Positions 27,422 through 63,290 of a stretch of 64,000 nt of DNA are shown in pieces (within the stretch, counting starts at the first letter, position 1; the number at the start of each line of letters is the position of its first letter). The position numbers and the translations under genes were made by a program. Location of the stretch: IMG/VR virus record IMGVR_UViG_3300005193_000001, positions 124,001 through 188,000 of that record; one strand, given 5' to 3'. The DNA comes from an uncultured virus (IMG/VR IMGVR_UViG_3300005193_000001) (lineage: Duplodnaviria; Heunggongvirae; Uroviricota; Caudoviricetes). Under the pieces are notes generated by a model that had not been told where the DNA came from, did no database searches, and saw only the letters and a program-made list of their open reading frames with translations.

Positions 27422-27425
27422 TATG

Positions 27426-27500
27426 AGCGGGAGAACGGATTCGAACCGCTGTCGCCAACCTTAGAAGTTGGGGTTATGGACCTTTCTAAACTACTCCCGC
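27426..27500 (-). tRNA. amber-suppressor tRNA (anticodon CUA), tRNA-Gly-like body
   Basis: Acceptor GCGGGAG/CTCCCGC + U73; anticodon arm CCAAC-TTCTAAG-GTTGG; T-loop TTCGAAT. Confidence 0.8.
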
Positions 27501-27903: not shown

Positions 27904-28215
27904 TCAAAACATATCAAACAAGCGCTTCGCGATACCTTCTGCACACTTCACGTCTTCGAGCTCCGGGTCCGTGAAAGTATAAATCCTTGACTTGATGGAA
28001 ATGGAGCTACTTTCTTGATAAACTGTAAACTCGACCTTGAAAGACGCCTTCGACCTCTCTCTCGTATCATAAACGAAAGCTTGGATTATATCTCCGCTTT
28101 CGAAGGCTTTCTCGTATGCGGCCTCAGCACTAGAGTCTTTCGGTACGCGAAAGCTAGAATATTCGTTGTTCTCCAAAACCTCAAGTGACGTGCCGCTGCT
28201 TTTATTCAAAATCAT
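27904..28215 (-). CDS. hypothetical protein
   Basis: ORF coupled to the kinase gene. Confidence 0.5.
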   Translation of the reverse strand: MILNKSSGTSLEVLENNEYSSFRVPKDSSAEAAYEKAFESGDIIQAFVYDTRERSKASFKVEFTVYQESSSISIKSRIYTFTDPELEDVKCAEGIAKRLFDMF

Positions 28216-28675
28216 CGTATCTGTTCTCCATCATTTCGTACCAATCTTCGAAGTGCATGTCATCAACTCCCAGAGGATCTTTAACCCTGCTAACGCGCTT
28301 AATCACGGGAATCAGATACTCTTGTTCAGAGTCTTTAGCGCGTTCAATGCAAACCTCGGGAGAGGTGTGGAACTCCTTGAAAACGGTCTGGAAATTCTCG
28401 TCCCTGAACAGGTTCCGCCTCTCTTCGGTCGCCATCATAGAGTCCAAAATGACGACGTCGTGATGGTCGTGAAAAAGAGCTCGGACAGCCACCCTAACAT
28501 GCTTCCAGACAAGTGGTTCTGCCTGTTTGTTGTAGTGGCTACCATGCACGGCATATCTGAACCCGTCAACCTCCACTACGGGCCAACCGTGCTCTTCCAT
28601 CATTTCATTAATCCACGTGCTCTTCCCCGCTCTCGGGAGTCCGACAGTTGCTACTAACGTATCTTCCTCAGTCAT
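28202..28675 (-). CDS. P-loop kinase (AAA_33 / polynucleotide kinase-like)
   Basis: GLPRAGKSTW Walker A, VVILDS, EVCIERA. Confidence 0.8.
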   Translation of the reverse strand: MTEEDTLVATVGLPRAGKSTWINEMMEEHGWPVVEVDGFRYAVHGSHYNKQAEPLVWKHVRVAVRALFHDHHDVVILDSMMATEERRNLFRDENFQTVFKEFHTSPEVCIERAKDSEQEYLIPVIKRVSRVKDPLGVDDMHFEDWYEMMENRYDDFE

Positions 28676-31236: not shown

Positions 31237-31546
31237 CGAATTCATCAAATTTTTTATAAAGATCGTCGTCGATTTCTTCTCCAAACACTTCTACCAAATA
31301 CTCTTCTTGGGTCATGGGCTCTATACGTCTGTAGTCTAAAGTGGACTTCCAAAGTTCTTGCACCGTGTCTCCGCTGGCCACCAAGGTCTCTTTCAGGTAC
31401 TCGAAGTCCACCTCTTTGTCCGGGCCTTCTCTTCTCTTATCGACCCACTGTCCGGGACCGTCCTCGGTGGAAACTTCGTTCCCAACGAGAGCAAACATGG
31501 TATCGAAGAAACGAGAGATACGAATCTCGTCGGCGTCGGGAAACAA
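31229..31546 (-). CDS. hypothetical protein
   Basis: Acidic ORF. Confidence 0.5.
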   Translation of the reverse strand: MFPDADEIRISRFFDTMFALVGNEVSTEDGPGQWVDKRREGPDKEVDFEYLKETLVASGDTVQELWKSTLDYRRIEPMTQEEYLVEVFGEEIDDDLYKKFDEFDV

Positions 31547-31584
31547 ATGGTGAAGCCTTCATAAAGCTTTCTTTTCTTGATCCA

Positions 31585-31791
31585 TTACAGTTCTTCTATG
31601 TTTCCACATTTTTGGCACTCGGCCACTTTGATGTAGTTTAGCCAAGCAAGCCCGAGAGTGAAAACAGACATAACTTTCTTCTCCGTCGTTACCTTACGAG
31701 TTGGTCCGGGATTCGGATGATTGTCGTAAAGGTAAACGTCGTGGAGAACTTCGCCTTGACATTTCTTACAATACCTTCTTTCAGAATCCAT
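31585..31791 (-). CDS. small zinc-ribbon protein
   Basis: CKKC...hydrophobic stretch...CQKCG. Confidence 0.55.
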   Translation of the reverse strand: MDSERRYCKKCQGEVLHDVYLYDNHPNPGPTRKVTTEKKVMSVFTLGLAWLNYIKVAECQKCGNIEEL

Positions 31792-31795
31792 CGGT

Positions 31796-32002
31796 CTATT
31801 CCGTCTGTTGCATTCTAGATTCTCCACAATAAGGACAGTACCGAAAAGGTGGACCTTCGTATTCAGGAAATCCAGAGTGCATCGTGGCAAGATTCATAAT
31901 GCCGCCGATTATAGAAACGTGTTCCATCCAATCGTTGCAGCACTCGTATTCAGGGTCTTTTAGCCCTTCCACCTTCTTATAAGACTCGTCGTCTTCACTC
32001 AT
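31796..32002 (-). CDS. small Cys-rich protein
   Basis: CC...FRYCPYCG. Confidence 0.55.
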   Translation of the reverse strand: MSEDDESYKKVEGLKDPEYECCNDWMEHVSIIGGIMNLATMHSGFPEYEGPPFRYCPYCGESRMQQTE

Positions 32003-32023
32003 AAGAACTTTGTCTTTTATTAG

Positions 32024-32125
32024 TCGTGTGGGCGGGACTCGAACCCGCGTTTCCGTGTGATCTCGGATTTGAACCAAGCCTCACCTCGACCTATCGGTCG
32101 GTGTTACCGGACGTTTTCCACACGA
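32024..32125 (-). ncRNA. tRNA-like RNA with two T-arms (copy A)
   Basis: Acceptor CGTGTGG/CCACACG-A; hairpin CGACC-GATA-GGTCG; CTTGG-TTCAAAT-CCGAG; GCGGG-TTCGAGT-CCCGC. Confidence 0.7.
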
Positions 32126-32129
32126 TTGG

Positions 32130-32545
32130 TTGTGTTTGCTCGCCGCAAACGGCCCTTCCAGCTTGCTCTGTACCGCTGATCAGACGGTAGGGGGCGCACC
32201 TTCAAAGTCGCTCACGGTGGTAGGCCACAACGGGCCAGCCGAGTGGGGCAGAGTCGAACTGGACCTCGCAAGTGCCAGCCGTGAAGCCAAGACACTCGCC
32301 CATCCACCCGGCTATTGCTTTTTTGGTGTCGGAAGCTATTCAAGGTATCGTTCGCCCTTCATGTTCTTCCGGAGAACGCAGTGATCGCTTTCAACGCAGC
32401 ACGCCGTCACGCTTTTTATCGCAGCGTGTTTACGGAATCGAACCGTCCAGTCCCGCTTCTCGTGGGTTCAAAGTTATGCGGATTCTGACCACTCTTGGCG
32501 GAGACCTGTCCCTGCTTTCGAGCCTGTCCCTTACTCGGCCCTAGC
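32130..32545 (-). ncRNA. candidate large structured ncRNA (or cluster of ncRNAs)
   Basis: About 415 nt without an acidic ORF; T-arm ACGG-TTCGATT-CCGT at 32432-32446; closed domain AGCCGGGTGG/CCACTCGGCT with T-loop at 32237-32313. Confidence 0.55.
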
Positions 32546-32643
32546 GTTTCCATATTTTAGTCTTTCGTGTTCCCCTTTGATCTTTCGATAAAGTTTCGAC
32601 CCATCCATGGCTTTCTCGTCTGTCAATCAAATGTTGGGGCCTA

Positions 32644-32958
32644 TTAACTGCTCGAATCTTGAAGTTGTTCCGAAGAAACTCGATCTTCATCTGGATTTAA
32701 TCTGGGCTTTGGCACCATGCCGTAGGCTACTGGAAAAATGACGAACATAAGATAAACCATCCAGAACCAAATGTTGGTAATTTGAAGAGCGGTAGTTGCA
32801 TCCAGGATCATGGTAAAGGAGAGAATAGCTGCCGCGATTCGAAAATACTGCCTGTAGATCTTCGGCTTCTCGTTGCTCAGCCAGTGCAACAGGTAGGTGG
32901 CACCCGCAAACACGGCTATAACCGCAAAAAGTATGAGAAGCGCTACGGGAGTGCTCAT
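32644..32958 (-). CDS. membrane protein
   Basis: Three hydrophobic helices. Confidence 0.65.
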   Translation of the reverse strand: MSTPVALLILFAVIAVFAGATYLLHWLSNEKPKIYRQYFRIAAAILSFTMILDATTALQITNIWFWMVYLMFVIFPVAYGMVPKPRLNPDEDRVSSEQLQDSSS

Positions 32959-33308
32959 TGATCTTGGATTCTTTCAGTGTACAAGTCCACGAACAGGTCC
33001 GTCATTTCGGCTTCCCTATCAAGGGCAGAAGCGTCCCAATCTTCCGTCTCTTTCTTGAGATATATCATGCTCTCGTGGAGAGATTCAACCACGTCTGCAC
33101 CATCCACGTCGCCTTCGATCTCGTCGTGAATCCTGCGGATGGCCGGAAGCGACATACCAGCCGCGTCTCCGCCAATTTCTACTCCTATACCATTAAGATA
33201 TGCGATATGCTGGTAGGCAGATTCCAAAGACTCCGCCAAAGATTCGACGTTTTCGGCGTCGTCAAGAAGACCAGAGTGTACCCACTTCTCGGTAAGAGAC
33301 GAGGACAT
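32955..33308 (-). CDS. hypothetical protein (N-terminus reminiscent of gp23-type capsid proteins)
   Basis: LTEKWVHSGLLD...SLPAIRRI. Confidence 0.55.
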   Translation of the reverse strand: MSSSLTEKWVHSGLLDDAENVESLAESLESAYQHIAYLNGIGVEIGGDAAGMSLPAIRRIHDEIEGDVDGADVVESLHESMIYLKKETEDWDASALDREAEMTDLFVDLYTERIQDQ

Positions 33309-33337
33309 ATATAACTAGTATTTGAAGTGACAATGCG

Positions 33338-33398
33338 CTGATCCTACGGAGTCGAACCGCTTCTCACTGCGCAAGTGAAACGGGCCAAAGACGGACCA
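33338..33398 (-). pseudogene. D-armless tRNA-like element, anticodon-loop triplet GCG
   Basis: TGGTCC/GGATCA acceptor, TTCAC-TTGCGCA-GTGAG arm, GCGG-TTCGACT-CCGT T-arm, no D-arm. Confidence 0.5.
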
Positions 33399-33402
33399 AT
33401 TG

Positions 33403-33475
33403 TTGCAGGGAGGGGACTCGAACCCCCAACATGTGGGACATGAATCCACCGTTCTGCCGATTGAACTACCCTGCA
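33403..33475 (-). tRNA. tRNA-Met (CAT)
   Basis: Cloverleaf; anticodon loop TTCATGT. Confidence 0.85.
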
Positions 33476-33486
33476 ATATAACTTTG

Positions 33487-33579
33487 AAACTCGTTGAATT
33501 TCTCCTCCACGAACCCAGAGTCATGACCTCCCATATCTTTCATACGAGTTCTCGCTCTGCCAAACTGAGCTACGGAGCA
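33487..33579 (-). pseudogene. tRNA 5' half (acceptor strand + D-arm) fused to a non-tRNA stem-loop
   Basis: TGCTCCGTAGCTCAGTTTGGCAGAGC followed by a GAACTCGT/ACGAGTTT stem; no intact T-arm or 3' acceptor strand. Confidence 0.5.
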
Positions 33580-33589
33580 TTGTTGAAAG

Positions 33590-33835
33590 TCAATCATCGA
33601 GCTTTTCGAGCGAACCTTCCGGTGGCGTGTTAGGAACTTTGTAGGGATCGTGAGGAGTGGGCTCGGTGTTTCCGTTCAGAGCTTCCTCTAACTTCCTGTC
33701 CCTAATTTCATCCATCTGCTTCCAAGTCAATCGTTGAGTTTCTACACCGAATTCATGAAGCTCGCCATCAACGTAGATGCCCCAACGATAACGATCTCGA
33801 ATGAACCTGCTCCAGACCTTAACGCTTTCCATCAA
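33590..33835 (-). CDS. hypothetical protein
   Basis: ORF coupled to the upstream gene. Confidence 0.5.
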   Translation of the reverse strand: MMESVKVWSRFIRDRYRWGIYVDGELHEFGVETQRLTWKQMDEIRDRKLEEALNGNTEPTPHDPYKVPNTPPEGSLEKLDD

Positions 33836-34155
33836 TCGAGAGAGAACGTGTCAACTTTACGATCTCGCACCTCTTTCGCCCTATCTTCTATGTTGTCCTT
33901 CTTGTCTTCAAAGTCTTTGAAGGCCGGGAACTTGTGCTGCCTACTTGGAACGTGTACTTCTCTTCCATCCAGGAAGAACCCGACGCCATCTTCCCAATCT
34001 CCTCCGATTCTGCCATAGAAAACGGGCTCGTCGTCTATGACATATGAAACGACAGCGGTACAATTTTCCGTTCCCTCTACATGACCCGAAAGTTCTTCGG
34101 ACCACCTGAGATCGGTTCTGGTCTCCCTGTCAAAATTACGATCATGTTCAAACAT
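33832..34155 (-). CDS. hypothetical protein
   Basis: Likely start MFEHDR just after tRNA-Ile. Confidence 0.55.
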   Translation of the reverse strand: MFEHDRNFDRETRTDLRWSEELSGHVEGTENCTAVVSYVIDDEPVFYGRIGGDWEDGVGFFLDGREVHVPSRQHKFPAFKDFEDKKDNIEDRAKEVRDRKVDTFSLD

Positions 34156-34158
34156 AAG

Positions 34159-34232
<74 letters not shown>

Positions 34233-34240
34233 GGATCGAG

Positions 34241-34585
34241 CTAAACTTGGGGCCTATCGTTGTTCTCGATAAAGTGCTTAAACAATCTTCTACCCGCTCT
34301 TTCAGGATTATCGATAGGAACCTCAACGGTGTCGAAGTAATCTCCGTATCTCTCCACTTCAACGTGCATCATGTTCCGAAAAGTGTTAGCGTTATCCGGG
34401 TTCATAACGTTATAGGCGAAGCCTCCATCCATGTAGACCTTGTATCCTTCCGAGAGCTTGTGTTCGACCACGTCTTTAATGTCCTGACCACCGAAGCTAT
34501 CCATTTCTTCGGTAACTTGCTTGGCGTAGTCAATTCCGGTCACTTCAAAGATCATTCTTCTAACCGCTTCTCTCAAATCATTCAT
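34241..34585 (-). CDS. hypothetical protein
   Basis: 114-aa acidic ORF. Confidence 0.6.
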   Translation of the reverse strand: MNDLREAVRRMIFEVTGIDYAKQVTEEMDSFGGQDIKDVVEHKLSEGYKVYMDGGFAYNVMNPDNANTFRNMMHVEVERYGDYFDTVEVPIDNPERAGRRLFKHFIENNDRPQV

Positions 34586-34635
34586 CGAAATCGCTCTGAT
34601 TTAAAGGCCCAATCTTCTAAGGTCAAATAACAGTT

Positions 34636-34729
34636 GTGGGCGATCAGAGATTCGAACTCCGTTAACCAAATTGATGGATTCGAACCATCGTTCACGGTAG
34701 CGAGCCGTGTTCCCAGGATTATCGCCCAT
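34636..34729 (-). ncRNA. tRNA-like RNA with two T-arms (copy B)
   Basis: Acceptor GGGCGAT/ATCGCCC-A; hairpin CACGG-CTCGCTA-CCGTG; GATGG-TTCGAAT-CCATC; CGGAG-TTCGAAT-CTCTG. Confidence 0.75.
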
Positions 34730-34836
34730 ATCTCACGCCTTGTTAAAGAGGGCGTGAGCAAACTCTTGGGCCGCTCTCGATGGAGAGCAAAAGGTCCACC
34801 ACCTCGTTTTTGTAGAAGAACGAGGAAACCTAACTG

Positions 34837-34910
34837 CACCCCCGACGAGATCCGAACTCGCGACCTCTTCCGTGACAGGGAAGCATCCTAGACCACTAGA
34901 CCACGGGGGT
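34837..34910 (-). tRNA. tRNA-Asp (GTC)
   Basis: Cloverleaf; CTTCC-CTGTCAC-GGAAG; G73. Confidence 0.92.
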
Positions 34911-34919
34911 ATAATTATG

Positions 34920-34992
34920 CTCCCCGGAGTGGACTCGAACCACTAACCGCCCGGTTAACAGCCGGGTGCTCTGCCGATTGAGCTACCGAGGA
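34920..34992 (-). tRNA. tRNA-Asn (GTT)
   Basis: Cloverleaf; CCCGG-CTGTTAA-CCGGG. Confidence 0.95.
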
Positions 34993-35186
34993 ATGAAGTT
35001 TTTAGAACCGCTTTCAAGACCCAAAAGCGGTGTGATAACCGCTACCAAATTTCGGTATTTCAATTGTTCTATTGGTCGAGGCAACGTGCTCCCCCGTAAA
35101 GGAAAAGCGCGAAACCACAAACCACGAGAGCGTCAAACAGCATCACGGTTTGCTTGGGTCTGAATGAGAAAGAAAGCGAAAAATAG

Positions 35187-35261
35187 CACGGACGGAAGGA
35201 TTTGAACCCTCGGCACGCGGGTTTGGAATCCGCTGCTCTGACCGACCTGAGCTACGTCCGT
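35187..35261 (-). tRNA. tRNA-Trp (CCA)
   Basis: Cloverleaf; loop TTCCAAA; G73. Confidence 0.92.
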
Positions 35262-35417
35262 ATGATTAGACCCGATTCCTTCTTCAAATGCTTCGTTTCG
35301 GGTCCTATCCAAGTGAAGCAGTCTTGGCGGTTCTAGTCGCAACTATACGCTGATATCGCCCACCTAAAGCTTCATCAACGCTCTGACCGTTGTTAGGGCA
35401 ACGATCAGCAACCTTCT

Positions 35418-35633
35418 TTACTGTTCGGGTTTTTCTATTTGTCCGATCATTTTCTGAAACACGTCAAGCCTTAGATTATCTTCTTCGGTAAGATCTTGAT
35501 TGTCTCCGTTTTTGAGATCTACGTCAGTTACCGAACCATTTTTAAACTTTACGAGGCAGCTATATTCGTGGACCTCGTTCTCTTCTGCTACTTTTGCTGT
35601 GGTAACTTTCCAAATAACGTTTGGACTTGCCAT
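35418..35633 (-). CDS. hypothetical protein
   Basis: 71-aa ORF. Confidence 0.5.
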   Translation of the reverse strand: MASPNVIWKVTTAKVAEENEVHEYSCLVKFKNGSVTDVDLKNGDNQDLTEEDNLRLDVFQKMIGQIEKPEQ

Positions 35634-35667: not shown

Positions 35668-35743
35668 TAGCGGGGGCAGGATTCGAACACTGCGTATGCG
35701 TGGATATGAGCCACGTCTGGAACCAGCCTCCAGTTACCCCGCA
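35668..35743 (-). tRNA. tRNA-Met (CAT), initiator-like
   Basis: TGCGGGG start with unpaired 1:72; CGTGG-CTCATAT-CCACG; one-base bulge in the T-stem. Confidence 0.75.
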
Positions 35744-36347: not shown

Positions 36348-36357
36348 CCCTTTTGTG

Positions 36358-36460
36358 TGCTTCTGGTGGGATTTGAACCCACGGCCTCGGGGTCGAGCGC
36401 ACTCGGTCAAGGACCGATTCACGTAGTGCCCCGCGCTCTGCCGAACTGAGCTACAAAAGC
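36358..36460 (-). ncRNA. tRNA body with a 36-nt structured insert in place of the anticodon loop
   Basis: Intact acceptor, D and T arms; CGGGG/CCCCG stem encloses CACTACGTGAATCGGTCCTTGACCGAGTGCGCTCGA. Confidence 0.8.
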
Positions 36461-44261: not shown

Positions 44262-44422
44262 CGACGACGGCGAGACTTGAACCCGCATGCACGCCCCGCT
44301 AAGTGACGTACATTTTAGGAGGCTATCCTATTTGCGCCGAAACACCGTGGCTAACGGCTTCGGGTTAGAGGGTCCCCCCTAACCGCTGGCGGCGATTACC
44401 GATTGCTCGCCACACGCCATCG
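44262..44422 (-). ncRNA. 160-nt tRNA-like RNA with multiple inserted hairpins
   Basis: 8-bp acceptor CGATGGCG/CGTCGTCG, D-like arm TGGCGA/TCGCCG, T-arm GCGGG-TTCAAGT-CTCGC, four internal hairpins; promoter-like motif at 44441-44465. Confidence 0.7.
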
Positions 44423-44921: not shown

Positions 44922-45445
44922 ACTGTAACTGGAAGTTCAACGCTTGTGTTAAATTCTGCAGCGGCTTTTACGGCACGCTGAGCCAATTTGACGGGATTAT
45001 CTTCTTTCATAGCAGCCATAGCCCCATAAGCCTCTCTCGCTCCAGTTCCGAGGGCGAAGAAGGGTTGATCAAAACGAATGACGGAAAAGTCCTTCTGAAC
45101 TTTGAATATTTTGTTCTTGACGGCCAGAAGAAACATTCCTCCTTCTTTTCTGTTGTTTTTTATCTTCGTAAAGCCCTTGCTTTCTAAAACGTGTCGGATC
45201 TTAGGAAGGAGAACGTCTATGGCGTAGAACCTTTCGCTTTCCGAATTTATATCGGGAGGACACAAATGGTGCTCCAAGATTTGACCCATCCTGAAACTCG
45301 TCGTATACCCCAAAGCCAACTCAATGCCATCGAATTTAAGAACCTTACTATTCCGAGACTTTCTCGTGTGATGGTTGCCCACACAGGCCGAGTCTCCAGC
45401 CAAAATAGCACCGGGATCCGATTCCACTCCTACAATACAGGTCAT
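44900..45445 (-). CDS. Ntn-hydrolase peptidase (HslV/proteasome-beta-like)
   Basis: N-terminal M-T-CIVG...AGDS, SKV, ALGTG...AYGAM. Confidence 0.8.
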   Translation of the reverse strand: MTCIVGVESDPGAILAGDSACVGNHHTRKSRNSKVLKFDGIELALGYTTSFRMGQILEHHLCPPDINSESERFYAIDVLLPKIRHVLESKGFTKIKNNRKEGGMFLLAVKNKIFKVQKDFSVIRFDQPFFALGTGAREAYGAMAAMKEDNPVKLAQRAVKAAAEFNTSVELPVTVCRTTSV

Positions 45446-45936
45446 CGTACGATACTTTCTATTTTTCTACAATCCTTTGCCGTTATGCCAACTGAAGGGT
45501 CCGTCTTGACGAAGTTGCTTTTGTGTCCGACTTTAGCACCGGGATTGTCGTCCACCACGACGTAATCTTCCTCCAGCCCCACGTCGGAAGCTTCTCTATG
45601 AAGCCACCGAGATATTACGGCCCCACGAGTGTCACTCTCTCCAAGCCCCCACGCCGAAATCTGTCGAGGTCCGGTAGTATCGACGACGGGACAGTTGTAC
45701 CAACCGTAGAGAGCCATAATGGAGGCCAATTTCTCCGGGCCGTGTCCCTGTCTCCAAGAACTCGACCACACGACGTGAAACCCCATCCTGTCAACTACGG
45801 TTCGAACGAGCCCAATCCTAACAGGGTCGAGCCTCCATGGACGACGGGCGGAACCGTAGCCCTCGAAGGCTCTACAAGAGTCCGAAGAATTCAGAACTCC
45901 ATCTACGTCAAGAAAAAGAAGGGGCGGTTTACTCAT
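45442..45936 (-). CDS. HAD-family phosphatase (Swiss-army-knife RNA-repair type)
   Basis: LFLDVDGVLN, VWSSSWR, RG..I..WL, YVVVDD. Confidence 0.85.
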   Translation of the reverse strand: MSKPPLLFLDVDGVLNSSDSCRAFEGYGSARRPWRLDPVRIGLVRTVVDRMGFHVVWSSSWRQGHGPEKLASIMALYGWYNCPVVDTTGPRQISAWGLGESDTRGAVISRWLHREASDVGLEEDYVVVDDNPGAKVGHKSNFVKTDPSVGITAKDCRKIESIVR

Positions 45937-46120
45937 CGTACACGTCGGTTTCGGCTTTCGTGGCTCGTCCAGACGTGGACGCGCTAAACTTGTCACTTAC
46001 GTCCGCTCTGGTTTCTCCATCTTCGAGCACAACGAACTGGTGAGGCTCGTAACTGGAGGGTTGCATGATGATGAAGTCCGCTCCGGGAGGAACGTCTTCG
46101 AAATCGATGTACAAATCCAT
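45929..46120 (-). CDS. hypothetical protein
   Basis: 63-aa ORF coupled to the HAD gene. Confidence 0.45.
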   Translation of the reverse strand: MDLYIDFEDVPPGADFIIMQPSSYEPHQFVVLEDGETRADVSDKFSASTSGRATKAETDVYDE

Positions 46121-52784: not shown

Positions 52785-52835
52785 TGGTGGAGCAGTCGGA
52801 TTCGAACCGACGATTACTGACCAACAGTTACTCCA
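52785..52835 (-). ncRNA. 51-nt tRNA minihelix-like element ending in CCA
   Basis: TGGAGTA/TGCTCCA-CCA, single hairpin ACTG-TTGGT-CAGT, T-arm GTCGG-TTCGAAT-CCGAC. Confidence 0.6.
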
Positions 52836-53580
52836 ACAAGTTTTCTATTTCGTAATTTTTCGCCCACCTTATATTTCCAGTATTTGTTTTCGGGTCTTCT
52901 ACTCTAAGGTGTATCCCTCTTTTTGGAGCATCGCTAAACTCAACTCCATAAACCTTATTTGTCTCTGAACAGTATATGGCAAACAAGTCTATGTCATCTT
53001 TATGATAAGACCCGCTTTTATTTATATTTTTATTGTACGAGTTTCCACTTCTTTCTAACTTTGCTACTATGCAACCATTTTTATAGTTTCCATTTTTTAC
53101 TTGCAGTTTCAAAAACCCATTCGAACTTTCAATCAAAAGGTCTTCTGCCGACCTCACTACTGGTTCATATATTTTATATCCTAATTCTACCAGTTTGGTT
53201 CTAACTTTCTCTTCCGCCAGAATTCCCTTATGTCGTTTTGAACCTAAAAACTCTTTTTTTGTTTTTGCTTTTCTCGGCTCTTTCGGTTCTTTTTTCAACT
53301 GGTCTTTTGTTTCTTTAGTCGTATATTTTACAACTGTCGTTTTAGATACACCTAAATTTTCCGCAACTGCGCTTACTGTCTCCCCACTTTTTCGAAGAGA
53401 GTTTATTTTCCGTTCTTTTTCTTTGCTTATCTTTTGTTGCTTTTTTCCAGTATCTTCAAGCCCCGCTTGCTTACAGTGGTAAGCTACCGTGCCTTTCGAG
53501 CAGTCAAGCTCATTTTCAATTTCACGATAGCTTTTACCCTCTTTTCGAAGTCGGATTATATCTTGCTTATACTTGCTCAT
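52828..53580 (-). mobile_element. free-standing homing-endonuclease-like gene: two HTH domains + PD-(D/E)XK nuclease (I-Ssp6803I-like)
   Basis: G.SYREI...L.CSKGTV HTH; KGILAE...DLLI...KLQVK...Y...DIDLFAIY; Lys-rich and visibly AT-richer than its flanks. Confidence 0.8.
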
Positions 53581-63072: not shown

Positions 63073-63215
63073 CGTACTTCTAAAAGTTCTTGTTTCGAAA
63101 CGTCCACGAAGCTTGAATGAAGCTTCGATGTTTCGAAAGCAACGTGTGACCCTTTAAGACTCAGATGTATACCGTTTGCTTCTTCACTTTTATGTATCCA
63201 GGAAAAGACGGTAAG

Positions 63216-63290
63216 TAGGGGCGGAGGGGATCGAACCCTCATGCGACTGATTTTAAGTCAGTCAGGTCTGCCAGTTCCCGTCACGCCCCC
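63216..63290 (-). tRNA. tRNA-Leu (TAA) with short variable region
   Basis: ACTGA-CTTAAAA-TCAGT; variable region only CGCAT. Confidence 0.85.

What the first reader, a model, noticed from the sequence alone, without database searches (positions are those of the whole stretch)
32024..32125. Double-T-arm tRNA-like RNA (copy A)
Seen: acceptor CGTGTGG/CCACACG-A, hairpin CGACC-GATA-GGTCG, T-like arm CTTGG-TTCAAAT-CCGAG, linker, T-arm GCGGG-TTCGAGT-CCCGC. The linkers can also pair (TCCG/CGGA, GTGA/TCAC). Its sequence is unrelated to copy B but the architecture is the same. Caveat: the inner loop could be read as a Leu(CAA) anticodon loop, but no D-arm is present.
Basis: partly seen in the sequence, partly recalled or inferred. 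Interest (0 to 1): 0.75.

Follow-up and report, generated by a model that had tools for sequence, protein, structure and literature searches.

The report
Two-T-arm tRNA look-alike in phage
This 100-base stretch of a giant brine phage looks like a worn-down tRNA gene that has lost its codon-reading arm and gained a second "T arm"; it is one more example of the phage tRNA-shaped RNAs (such as RNA2 of phage T5) whose job is still unknown.

Summary
On the minus strand, window 32024-32125 folds into an 8-bp closing (acceptor) stem, a 3' T-arm, an inner second T-arm, a tetraloop hairpin and two short linker helices (MFE -42 kcal/mol, z -2.85, 0 of 200 shuffles as stable). ARAGORN and Rfam do not call it a tRNA.

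The Leu(CAA) caveat carries no information: any T-loop TTCRA read as an anticodon loop gives CAA or CGA. The inner arm is also 15/15 identical to the T-arm of this phage's tRNA-Glu.

New points:
- The element is tRNA-derived. Its first 72 nt keep canonical tRNA segment lengths, a D-loop remnant and a vestigial second 3' acceptor strand.
- Copies A and B are related, not unrelated. They share a D-loop motif found only 3 times in 2x263 kb.
- Phage T5 RNA2, annotated as a "tRNA-like stable RNA with unknown functions", has the same two-T-arm design, with covariation. A is not a sequence member of that family.

This scan has already met this two-T-arm class on other DNA.

Best reading (0.55): a non-decoding, tRNA-derived RNA processed like a tRNA. 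Expression is untested. Verdict: a new variant of a known kind, of moderate interest.

The parts
32118..32124 (-). 5' acceptor strand CGTGTGG (T at 32125 can add an 8th pair with A 32024)
   Evidence: pair probability 0.96-1.0 with 32025-32031
32101..32111 (-). D-loop remnant plus 3' D-stem strand, TCCGGTA-ACAC. The 5' D-stem strand is lost, so no D-stem forms. TCCG (32111-32108) is predicted to pair with CGGA (32055-32052).
   Evidence: The motif TCC(N)GG(N)AACAC occurs 3 times in 2x263 kb, two of them in copies A and B. The same motif is the GTGT/ACAC-type D-arm of called tRNAs in other phage contigs. Linker helix probability 0.76-0.88.
32087..32100 (-). hairpin CGACC-GATA-GGTCG (4-nt loop) in the place of the anticodon arm; it can be extended by CAC/GTG with an AG bulge
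   Evidence: probability 0.92-1.0; the segment after ACAC is 22 nt, the canonical length for position 26 + anticodon arm + variable loop (my count on the sequence)
32062..32078 (-). inner T-arm CTTGG-TTCAAAT-CCGAG, predicted to cap the central arm
   Evidence: 5/5 pairs; GGTTCAAATCCGAGA is 15/15 identical to the T-arm of tRNA-Glu(ttc) at genome 172237-172251
32054..32060 (-). vestigial second 3' acceptor strand TCACACG, complementary 7/7 (one G-U) to the 5' acceptor strand. In the MFE its TCAC pairs with GTGA (32084-32081) instead.
   Evidence: the fold forced to use it is -33.2 against -41.2 kcal/mol for the outer fold
32032..32048 (-). outer T-arm GCGGG-TTCGAGT-CCCGC
   Evidence: the only part matched by the Rfam tRNA/tmRNA models; probability 0.99-1.0
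32024..32031 (-). 3' acceptor strand CCACACG plus discriminator A (32024). No CCA is encoded. The next ORF's ATG is at 32002, 21 nt downstream.
34637..34728 (-). copy B: GGGCGAT / AATCCTGGGAACAC / CACGG-CTCGCTA-CCGTG / GATGG-TTCGAAT-CCATC / AATTTGGTTAA / CGGAG-TTCGAAT-CTCTG / ATCGCCC-A

Best explanation
Copy A is a tRNA-derived gene for an RNA that can no longer decode, in the tRNA array of a 263-kb tailed phage from brine. It keeps the part of a tRNA that the processing machinery reads: an 8-bp acceptor stem stacked on a normal 3' T-arm. It has lost the D-stem. A tetraloop hairpin stands where the anticodon arm should be. A second T-arm caps the predicted central arm. Proposed mechanism, with shown and inferred steps marked. 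(1) It is transcribed with the surrounding minus-strand tRNAs and small ORFs (inferred from orientation only). (2) It folds as (shown by computation on one sequence). (3) Its acceptor/T-arm minihelix is cut by RNase P at the 5' end and by RNase Z or exonucleases at the 3' end, and it receives CCA from the host or from the phage's own CCA-adding-type enzyme. This is inferred from established knowledge that a minihelix is enough for these enzymes. (4) The result is a compact RNA of about 100 nt and, at the same time, a defined 5' end for the mRNA that starts 21 nt downstream. That is the role tRNA-like 't-elements' play in plant mitochondria (recalled). The second T-arm most likely serves as a folding knob, as in T5 RNA2. 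Any trans-acting role is unknown.
For: Not a decoder. ARAGORN at default settings and the Rfam tRNA model do not call it. Even in a 341-nt search only the outer T-arm matches, at 14.2 bits against a cut-off of 29.

tRNA descent. The first 72 nt have canonical tRNA segment lengths and align with the phage's tRNA-His (local score 40). There is a D-loop/ACAC remnant of a D-arm type seen in called tRNAs of other phages. The inner T-arm is 15/15 identical to the tRNA-Glu T-arm.

Structure kept rather than decayed. All four hairpin or closing stems are perfect (one G-U); z -2.85, 0 of 200 shuffles as stable; pair probabilities 0.92-1.0. A and B share the D-loop remnant found in no called tRNA of this genome (3 hits in 2x263 kb). 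Yet they differ at 6 of 7 acceptor pairs on both sides while staying paired (my count on the sequences).

Precedent. T5 RNA2 is annotated 'tRNA-like stable RNA with unknown functions'. It has an inner and an outer T-arm inside an 8-bp closing stem. Across 9 aligned T5-like phages the structure is 93.5% paired, 16 of 35 pairs change on both sides, 0 of 500 shuffles reach that, and slid controls give 33-45% paired.

Recurrence. Among 80 unique two-T-arm pattern hits in viral contigs with both T-stems formed, 15 have a 7-bp closing stem with at most 1 G-U at the correct register, against 0-7 (mean about 4) at 11 shifted registers.

Machinery. The phage encodes a PolyA_pol/CCA-adding family protein and two RNA_ligase family proteins, and a HAD RNA-repair domain protein in the window.

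Position. A, B, the 33338 element and the 44263 element each end 21-51 nt upstream of a minus-strand ORF.
Against: There is no expression data: no RNA run is listed, and all four runs holding the sequence are DNA runs from one study. No diverged homologue of A was found (0 hits; the one metagenome hit is 857/857 identical). So no helix of A has covariation support, and the linker helices rest on thermodynamics alone. The homology of A and B rests on one 11-12-nt motif, and their downstream ORFs are unrelated. The vestigial inner acceptor strand fits a rearrangement scar as well as a function. The punctuation role is an analogy and was not tested. Promoter-like and terminator-like sites are at chance level. 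With G-U pairs allowed freely, the closing-stem criterion does not discriminate (21 of 81 at the true register against 7-19 of 81 at shifted registers), so my first count of 26 look-alikes overstated the recurrence.
Confidence: 0.55

Rival explanations
1. A functionless scar. A tRNA gene decayed (D-stem and anticodon loop lost) and picked up a second T-arm plus acceptor strand through recombination or partial duplication inside a fast-evolving tRNA array. The good fold is inherited from the parent tRNAs and is not under selection.
For: There are two near-identical 3' acceptor strands (TCACACG and CCACACG, 6/7 identical), both complementary to the one 5' strand. The inner 72 nt keep tRNA segment lengths but the D-stem is broken. 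In viral contigs 56 of 109 unique pattern hits are ordinary tRNAs followed within 0-14 nt by an orphan T-arm, so stray T-arms next to tRNAs are common. A homing-endonuclease-like PD-(D/E)XK+HTH gene lies in the array. The window holds several other odd tRNA-like pieces.
Against: A decaying gene should accumulate stem mismatches, but here 27 of 27 pairs in the acceptor, hairpin and both T-arms are standard. The anticodon-arm segment was remodelled into a new perfect hairpin without any change in length. The two T-arm stems differ at 4 of 5 pairs, so this is not a recent duplication, yet both acceptor strands still pair. There is no tyrosine integrase in the genome. The same design is conserved with covariation in T5 RNA2.
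Confidence: 0.27
2. A trans-acting tRNA mimic. The processed two-T-arm RNA acts as a decoy or sponge for a factor that recognises the tRNA elbow or T-arm, such as a tRNA-targeting defence nuclease, a modification enzyme or RNase P. Alternatively it acts as a carrier.
For: Two intact T-loops with the full GGTTCRANTCC consensus. Several independent phage lineages keep two-T-arm RNAs. The phage invests in tRNA and RNA repair functions.
Against: Nothing here tests binding. The functions of T5 RNA2 and T4 species 1 RNA are annotated as unknown. A GG-bearing linker that could dock the inner T-loop is no more frequent in uncalled two-T-arm elements (22 of 36) than in controls (31 of 44).
Confidence: 0.12
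3. A working tRNA: either tRNA-Leu(CAA) using the inner arm as its anticodon arm, or a tRNA whose odd middle is an intron removed by the phage's RNA repair enzymes.
For: The inner loop TTCAAAT has U33 and A37, and the discriminator is A. The phage has another tRNA with a 29-nt insert in its anticodon loop, and Lak phages carry 'enigmatic' tRNA introns (passages of 10.1101/356790). RNA ligase genes are present.
Against: Any T-loop TTCRA reads as CAA or CGA, so the anticodon is automatic. The arm is 15/15 identical to a T-arm. There is no D-stem. No contiguous excision gives a cloverleaf: ARAGORN -i at its default threshold makes no call, and the ps80 model is poor. Canonical Leu(CAA) and four other Leu tRNAs are already encoded.
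Confidence: 0.05

Closest known systems
Phage T5 RNA2 (misc_RNA rna2, T5s06, NC_005859 32959-33083; 'tRNA-like stable RNA with unknown functions')
   Same: A closing acceptor stem of 7-8 bp and a 3' T-arm directly next to it. A second T-loop hairpin (GCTCG-TTCGATT-CGAGT) caps the central arm where a tRNA has its anticodon. It sits in a phage tRNA cluster on the same strand as the tRNAs.
   Different: T5 RNA2 has a regular D-arm and a small variable hairpin, is 125 nt long and is conserved in 437 phage records. Copy A has no D-stem, has a side hairpin and a vestigial inner acceptor strand, and has no sequence relatives. The T5 RNA2 covariance model scores A at 20.6 bits, aligning only the acceptor and outer T-arm, which is within the range of ordinary tRNAs of the window (8.8-24.2 bits).
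Phage T4 species 1 RNA (rnaC, NC_000866 70908-71046; 'small, stable RNA')
   Same: A non-decoding stable RNA inside a phage tRNA cluster, with a canonical T-arm (CCGGG-TTCGAAT-CCCGG) next to its 3' end.
   Different: It has one T-arm only, is 139 nt long and has long unrelated arms.
[quoted passage not shown]
   Same: A T-arm-bearing, tRNA-like module nested inside a tRNA frame in a large phage. My hits L029 and L051 are tRNA-Thr(TGT)-type genes with such an insert.
   Different: There the outer gene is a complete tRNA with an anticodon stem, and the insert is a self-contained minihelix in the anticodon loop. Copy A has no outer anticodon arm, and its inner T-arm pairs with outer sequence.
Plant mitochondrial t-elements and the MALAT1 mascRNA (recalled, not looked up here)
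   Same: tRNA-like acceptor/T-arm structures used only as RNase P/RNase Z cutting signals that define the ends of neighbouring transcripts.
   Different: They occur in eukaryotic organelles or the nucleus. No processing data exist for copy A.
tmRNA tRNA-like domain
   Same: An acceptor stem, a T-arm and a D-loop analogue without a D-stem. The Rfam tmRNA model matches the outer T-arm (16.3 bits).
   Different: There is no tag reading frame, there are no pseudoknots and there is no G3:U70 (A has T3-A70). ARAGORN's tmRNA search finds none, and the score is far below the cut-off of 47.

Membership tests
Canonical tRNA (Rfam RF00005 / ARAGORN) | Whole-molecule match at or above the curated score | tested here: not met
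   No hit at gathering threshold. Only a local T-arm match of 14.2 bits against 29 in a 341-nt search. ARAGORN default and -i make no call.
Canonical tRNA (Rfam RF00005 / ARAGORN) | D-arm with a 3-4 bp stem | tested here: not met
   In the canonical register AACG/CACC gives 1 of 4 pairs. A D-loop and the ACAC strand remain.
Canonical tRNA (Rfam RF00005 / ARAGORN) | Anticodon arm: 5-bp stem with a 7-nt loop at positions 27-43 | tested here: not met
   That segment forms CGACC-GATA-GGTCG with a 4-nt loop. The only 7-nt U33 loop is the inner T-arm, 15/15 identical to the tRNA-Glu T-arm.
Canonical tRNA (Rfam RF00005 / ARAGORN) | 7-bp acceptor stem directly next to a 5-bp T-stem with a TTCRANY loop | tested here: met
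T5 RNA2 family | Second T-loop hairpin capping the central arm inside an acceptor/T-arm frame | tested here: met
   The MFE of A places CTTGG-TTCAAAT-CCGAG on top of TCCG/CGGA and GTGA/TCAC. In T5 RNA2, helix 6 caps helices 3-5.
T5 RNA2 family | Match to a covariance model of the family across the interior, above ordinary tRNAs | tested here: not met
   With R1 (built from 9 sequences), A scores 20.6 bits with the interior unaligned and B scores 10 bits, while ordinary tRNAs of the window score up to 24.2 bits.
T5 RNA2 family | Regular D-arm (5-bp stem, GG loop) | tested here: not met
   It is present and covarying in the T5 family (helix 2) but absent in A.
T5 RNA2 family | Accumulates as a stable RNA in infection | not testable with these tools
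   No RNA run is listed for this DNA.
tmRNA | Tag ORF, pseudoknots, G3:U70 | tested here: not met
   ARAGORN finds no tmRNA. The Rfam tmRNA model matches 18 nt of T-arm only. Pair 3-70 is T-A.
Bacterial Y RNA / YrlA | Ro60 (TROVE) partner gene and a match to the Rfam model | tested here: not met
   PF05731 has 0 matches in the 263-kb genome. No Rfam hit at E up to 10.
Intron-bearing tRNA | Removing one contiguous insert leaves a cloverleaf with an anticodon | tested here: not met
   ARAGORN -i at its default threshold makes no call. At ps80 it gives Leu(gag) with a 9-nt intron, 1 of 4 D-stem pairs and a 24-nt unpaired variable region.
Integrase att-site scar at a tRNA 3' end | Integrase gene, and a direct repeat of the tRNA 3' part | tested here: not met
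   PF00589 has 0 matches. The two 3' modules are 5 nt apart, share 6 of 7 acceptor bases but differ at 4 of 5 T-stem pairs.

The most novel reading that the evidence does not exclude
Copies A and B are working 'two-elbow' tRNA mimics. After tRNA-type processing and CCA addition, the RNA presents two T-loop elbows on one acceptor handle. It acts in trans, for example by soaking up a host factor that recognises tRNA elbows or T-arms (a tRNA-cutting defence nuclease or a processing or modification enzyme). On this reading, T5 RNA2 and the unrelated two-T-arm RNAs of other large phages are convergent solutions to the same conflict.
Probability: 0.12. Interest if true: 0.8.

Novelty: new variant of a known kind. 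Interest (0 to 1): 0.42.

Why it matters
Phage tRNA clusters have been known for decades to hold tRNA-shaped stable RNAs (T4 species 1, T5 RNA1 and RNA2) with no assigned function. Copy A adds an independent, sequence-unrelated example from a hypersaline jumbo phage. Unusually, it shows its own history: the same molecule still carries a tRNA-length body, a D-loop remnant and a leftover acceptor strand. That makes it a useful case for asking how a decoding tRNA gene turns into a two-T-arm RNA, and which parts selection keeps (the acceptor/T-arm handle and a second T-loop). If the two-T-arm design has a trans-acting role, it would be a widespread and overlooked phage RNA function. If it is only a cutting signal or a scar, it is a warning for tRNA annotation in large phages.

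Tried and rejected
1. Leu(CAA) reading: rejected (see rivals). The same reasoning makes copy B's 'Ser(CGA)' reading automatic.

2. Homologues of A for covariation. A specific two-T-arm pattern found 0 viral contigs. A hairpin+T1+T2 pattern found 1 metagenome contig, 857/857 identical to the window. blastn of 8 kb against 50,697 phage records matched only tRNA-sized pieces, at most 3% coverage. The scan's own index has no look-alike.

3. Expression: no RNA holder is listed. There are 4 DNA runs of one brine-metagenome study, which may be the source of this DNA.

4. Population variation: contigs of the 4 runs show no differing letter inside 32024-32125, which is uninformative.

5. My first count of look-alikes (26 of 121 matches with a 7/7 closing stem, G-U allowed) did not survive a control: 21 of 81 at the true register against 7-19 of 81 at shifted registers. 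Only the stricter count stands (15 of 80 against 0-7).

6. Idea that a GG-bearing linker after the inner T-arm forms a second elbow: not supported statistically (22 of 36 uncalled elements against 31 of 44 controls have GG).

7. T5 RNA2 membership: rejected by the covariance model. L106 from another phage does align through its inner T-arm at 22.5 bits.

8. Y RNA, tmRNA and att-scar readings: rejected.

9. A+ORF and B+ORF as duplicated cassettes: the downstream proteins show no similarity.

10. Sigma-70 promoter and terminator scan of 31500-35500: counts at chance.

11. The MAFFT alignment of A with B is not structural and was not used for counts.

12. Literature. Four full-text searches found no paper on two-T-arm phage RNAs or on T5 RNA2 in the held library. 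Old T4/T5 papers from subscription journals are not in it, so this is not proof of absence. The supplements of the Lak preprint (Table S6, intron sequences) were not opened.

Full report
CONTEXT. The window is bases 124001-188000 of a 263,015-bp virus record rated complete. It is a tailed phage. Pfam finds a gp25 baseplate wedge, a primase, an SF1 helicase, dUTPase, dCMP deaminase, a peptide deformylase, Cpn10 and a cell-wall hydrolase-like protein (72 ORFs scanned, 22 with a hit). This set points to a bacterial rather than an archaeal host. Shine-Dalgarno-like cores are rare upstream of long ORFs (20 of 216). The DNA is held by four DNA runs of one brine-metagenome study. ARAGORN with introns allowed finds 49 tRNA genes in the genome, 35 of them in the window, and 48 of the 49 on the minus strand. 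The phage also encodes a PolyA_pol/CCA-adding family protein, two RNA_ligase family proteins and a HAD 'Swiss Army Knife' RNA-repair domain protein. It has no RtcB, no Ro60 and no tyrosine integrase.

THE OBSERVATION. The MFE fold (-42.0 kcal/mol) contains every one of them, including the two linker helices. 200 dinucleotide shuffles average -31.8 (z -2.85) and none folds as well. Pair probabilities are about 1.0 for the acceptor, 0.98-1.0 for both T-stems, 0.92-1.0 for the hairpin and 0.76-0.88 for the linker helices. A scan of the genome for 5-bp stems around TTCRANY loops gives 164 hits, of which 48 lie in called tRNAs. Only 22 of the rest have 5/5 pairs, and four of those make the two tight pairs of copies A and B.

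IT IS NOT A tRNA. ARAGORN at default settings and the Rfam gathering search tRNAs each in the window and skip this place. With permissive thresholds Rfam matches only the outer T-arm: the tmRNA model at 16.3 bits against 47, and the tRNA model at 14.2 bits against 29 in a 341-nt search. That model is a 'Leu(gag)' with a 9-nt intron, one D-stem pair of four and a 24-nt unpaired variable region.

THE Leu(CAA) CAVEAT. A T-loop has the consensus T-T-C-R-A. Read as positions 32-36 of an anticodon loop, it always gives anticodon CAA (Leu) or CGA (Ser). So A 'reading' Leu and B 'reading' Ser is automatic and carries no information. Positive evidence says the inner arm is a T-arm. GGTTCAAATCCGAGA is 15/15 identical to the T-arm of the phage's tRNA-Glu(ttc), and the same CTCGG-TTCRAAT-CCGAG arm serves tRNA-His, Gln and a second Glu. 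Canonical tRNA-Leu(CAA) and tRNA-Ser(CGA) are encoded elsewhere in the genome.

WHERE IT COMES FROM. Three things show descent from an ordinary tRNA gene.
- From C1, the segments have canonical lengths: 7 (acceptor), 2, 4+7+4 (D region), then 22 nt up to the inner T-arm (1+17+4 in a tRNA), then the 17-nt T-arm. The stretch aligns with the phage's tRNA-His over about 72 nt (local score 40).
- TCCGGTA-ACAC is a D-loop plus the 3' strand of a D-stem. In other phage contigs the same motif is the D-arm GTGT-AATCC(N)GG(N)A-ACAC of tRNAs called Pro, Leu, Gln, Ala and Ser (25 loci, 16 of them inside an ARAGORN tRNA call). In A the 5' strand reads AACG, so the stem cannot form.
- Directly after the inner T-arm (one A later) comes TCACACG, a 7/7 complement (one G-U) of the 5' acceptor strand.

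So A is a 72-nt tRNA body followed by GAAAC and a second T-arm plus acceptor strand (CCACACG). The outer closure wins by about 8 kcal/mol (-41.2 against -33.2). The old anticodon-arm segment has been remodelled, without any change in length, into a perfect tetraloop hairpin.

COPIES A AND B. The motif TCC(N)GG(N)AACAC occurs three times in both strands of the 263-kb genome. Two of the three lie right after the 5' acceptor strand of A and of B, and none lies in a called tRNA of this phage. Both hairpins also start on the CAC of that motif and end with GTG. If A and B are paralogues, their acceptor stems differ on both sides at 6 of 7 pairs and their T-stems at 2-3 of 5, and all stay paired (my count on the sequences). 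Any two tRNAs would look like that too, so this is weak support. B's two-T-arm fold (-29.4) is within 0.4 kcal/mol of its MFE, which pairs the two palindromic TTCGAA loops. The ORFs downstream of A and B are unrelated.

IS THE DESIGN FOUND ELSEWHERE? My first tally of closed elements (26 of 121) failed a control. With G-U allowed, a 7/7 closing stem turns up about as often at shifted registers (7-19 of 81) as at the true one (21 of 81). With at most one G-U the true register gives 15 of 80 against 0-7 (mean about 4). So roughly ten of the fifteen are real. They fall into three groups:
- short uncalled elements like A and B: L049, L059/L088, L075/L085, L106, L107; 91-99 nt;
- tRNAs with a T-arm-bearing insert in the anticodon loop (L029, L051, L041, L072);
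- tRNAs nested in a larger closed element.

Of 109 unique loci, 56 are simply a called tRNA followed within 0-14 nt by an orphan T-arm whose 3' strand does not pair with that tRNA's 5' end. [quoted passage not shown]

THE CLOSEST KNOWN THING. A note from this scan pointed me to the stable RNAs of phage T5. In NC_005859, rna2 (32959-33083) is annotated 'tRNA-like stable RNA with unknown functions'. Its sequence has an inner T-arm GCTCG-TTCGATT-CGAGT and an outer T-arm GCAGG-TTCGAAT-CCTGT inside an 8-bp closing stem. blastn finds it in 437 phage records. I aligned nine of them, chosen to span 77-100% identity. RNAalifold gives an acceptor, a D-arm, a long central arm capped by the inner T-arm, and the outer T-arm, with 16 of 35 pairs changed on both sides. 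On that structure 93.5% of cells pair, against 82.1% in shuffles (0 of 500 reach the observed value) and 33-45% when partners are slid. The inner T-stem has 3 of 5 pairs with double changes. The two-T-arm design is thus a conserved feature of a known phage RNA.

Copy A is not a member of that family. The covariance model built from the nine sequences scores A at 20.6 bits with only the acceptor and outer T-arm aligned. Ordinary tRNAs of the window score 8.8-24.2 bits and copy B scores 10 bits. One element from another phage, L106, does align through its inner T-arm at 22.5 bits. T4 species 1 RNA has a single T-arm. This scan has reported the two-T-arm class several times on other DNA. I did not check those reports beyond the T5 facts above.

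HOW IT MOST LIKELY WORKS. Shown, by computation on one sequence: the fold, its tRNA descent and its inability to decode. Inferred: the element is transcribed with the array, and the acceptor/outer-T-arm minihelix is cut by RNase P and RNase Z and receives CCA. None is encoded, as in the phage's tRNAs, and the phage carries a CCA-adding-type gene. This would leave a compact RNA of about 100 nt. It would also give the mRNA that begins 21 nt downstream a defined 5' end. A, B and the elements at 33338 and 44263 all end 21-51 nt before an ORF. I put 0.55 on 'a maintained, processed, non-decoding tRNA-like RNA'. Within that, a cis role as a processing handle is more likely than a trans role. The main rival (0.27) is a functionless rearrangement scar. 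A trans-acting mimic gets 0.12 and a real decoder or an intron-bearing tRNA 0.05.

LIMITS. There are no RNA data. There is no diverged homologue. There is no variation among the four runs. Promoter and terminator scans are at chance. The idea that a GG-bearing linker docks the inner T-loop found no statistical support. Four literature searches found nothing on this design in the held library. The old T4/T5 papers are not in that library.

VERDICT. It needs three corrections: A is visibly tRNA-derived with a leftover acceptor strand, it is related to B, and its design is already known from T5 RNA2. It is a new variant of a known kind whose function is still unknown.

Noticed in passing
window 34637-34728 (-): Copy B: a second two-T-arm element. 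It has a D-loop remnant (AATCCTGGGAACAC) but no 5' D-stem strand, and a 5-bp/7-nt-loop hairpin (loop CTCGCTA). Both T-loops are TTCGAAT, so they can pair with each other.
   Followed up: partly
window 33338-33399 (-): A 62-nt tRNA-like element directly after tRNA-Met. It has a 7-bp closing stem (with G-U pairs), a 12-nt GG-bearing linker instead of a D-arm, the hairpin TTCAC-TTGCGCA-GTGAG and a T-arm with a TTCGACT loop.
   Followed up: partly
window 52788-52834 (-): A mini tRNA-like element of about 47 nt: an acceptor stem (one mismatch), a D-arm-like hairpin ACTG-TTGGT-CAGT, the T-arm GTCGG-TTCGAAT-CCGAC, no anticodon arm, followed by an encoded CCA.
   Followed up: no
window 44263-44421 (-): A 159-nt element closed by a 7-bp stem next to the T-arm GCGGG-TTCAAGT-CTCGC, with several strong internal hairpins (MFE -64.4). 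It ends 32 nt before an ORF.
   Followed up: no
window 32126-32312 (-): The 190 nt upstream of copy A are also non-coding and strongly folded. A 76-nt piece (32236-32312) has a 9-11-bp closing stem, a long hairpin and a weak T-loop-like AGTTCGACTC. 32178-32218 gives a weak, sub-threshold match to the archaeal C/D-box sRNA model sR42 (15.3 bits against 38).
   Followed up: partly
window 35672-35742 (-): A probable tRNA with a CAT anticodon (loop CTCATAT) and an odd T-loop region, missed by ARAGORN and by Rfam at gathering score. It was found with the T5 RNA2 model at 12.6 bits.
   Followed up: no
window 36357-36460 (-): A tRNA (55.7 bits with Rfam) with an insert of about 29-35 nt in its anticodon loop that folds into its own hairpin. 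Short tRNA inserts are unusual for a phage of bacteria. Genome 235268-235451 (+) is called tRNA-Pro(cgg) with an 86-nt intron.
   Followed up: no
window 27425-27500 (-): A tRNA with anticodon CTA (called 'Pyl', that is, an amber suppressor). TAG still ends 41 of 216 long ORFs, so whether the phage recodes TAG is open.
   Followed up: no
window 63215-63290 (-) and genome 189074-189148: tRNAs with Leu anticodons TAA and TAG that are only 75-76 nt long and have no long variable arm. Bacterial tRNA-Leu is normally class II.
   Followed up: no
window 52828-53580 (-), 45442-45996 (-), 28202-28675 (-): A PD-(D/E)XK endonuclease with HTH domains (homing-endonuclease-like) lies inside the tRNA array. 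There is also a HAD 'Swiss Army Knife' RNA-repair domain protein and an AAA_33 kinase-like protein.
   Followed up: no
loci L002-L119 (viral contigs): In 56 of 109 unique two-T-loop hits an ordinary tRNA is followed within 0-14 nt by an orphan T-arm whose 3' strand does not pair with that tRNA's 5' end. This is a common, unexplained arrangement in phage contigs.
   Followed up: partly
loci L136-L138, L146, L150, L151, L154: Phage tRNA-like genes with the GTGT/ACAC D-arm, for which ARAGORN reports a four-base 'anticodon' gggc (an 8-nt loop).
   Followed up: no
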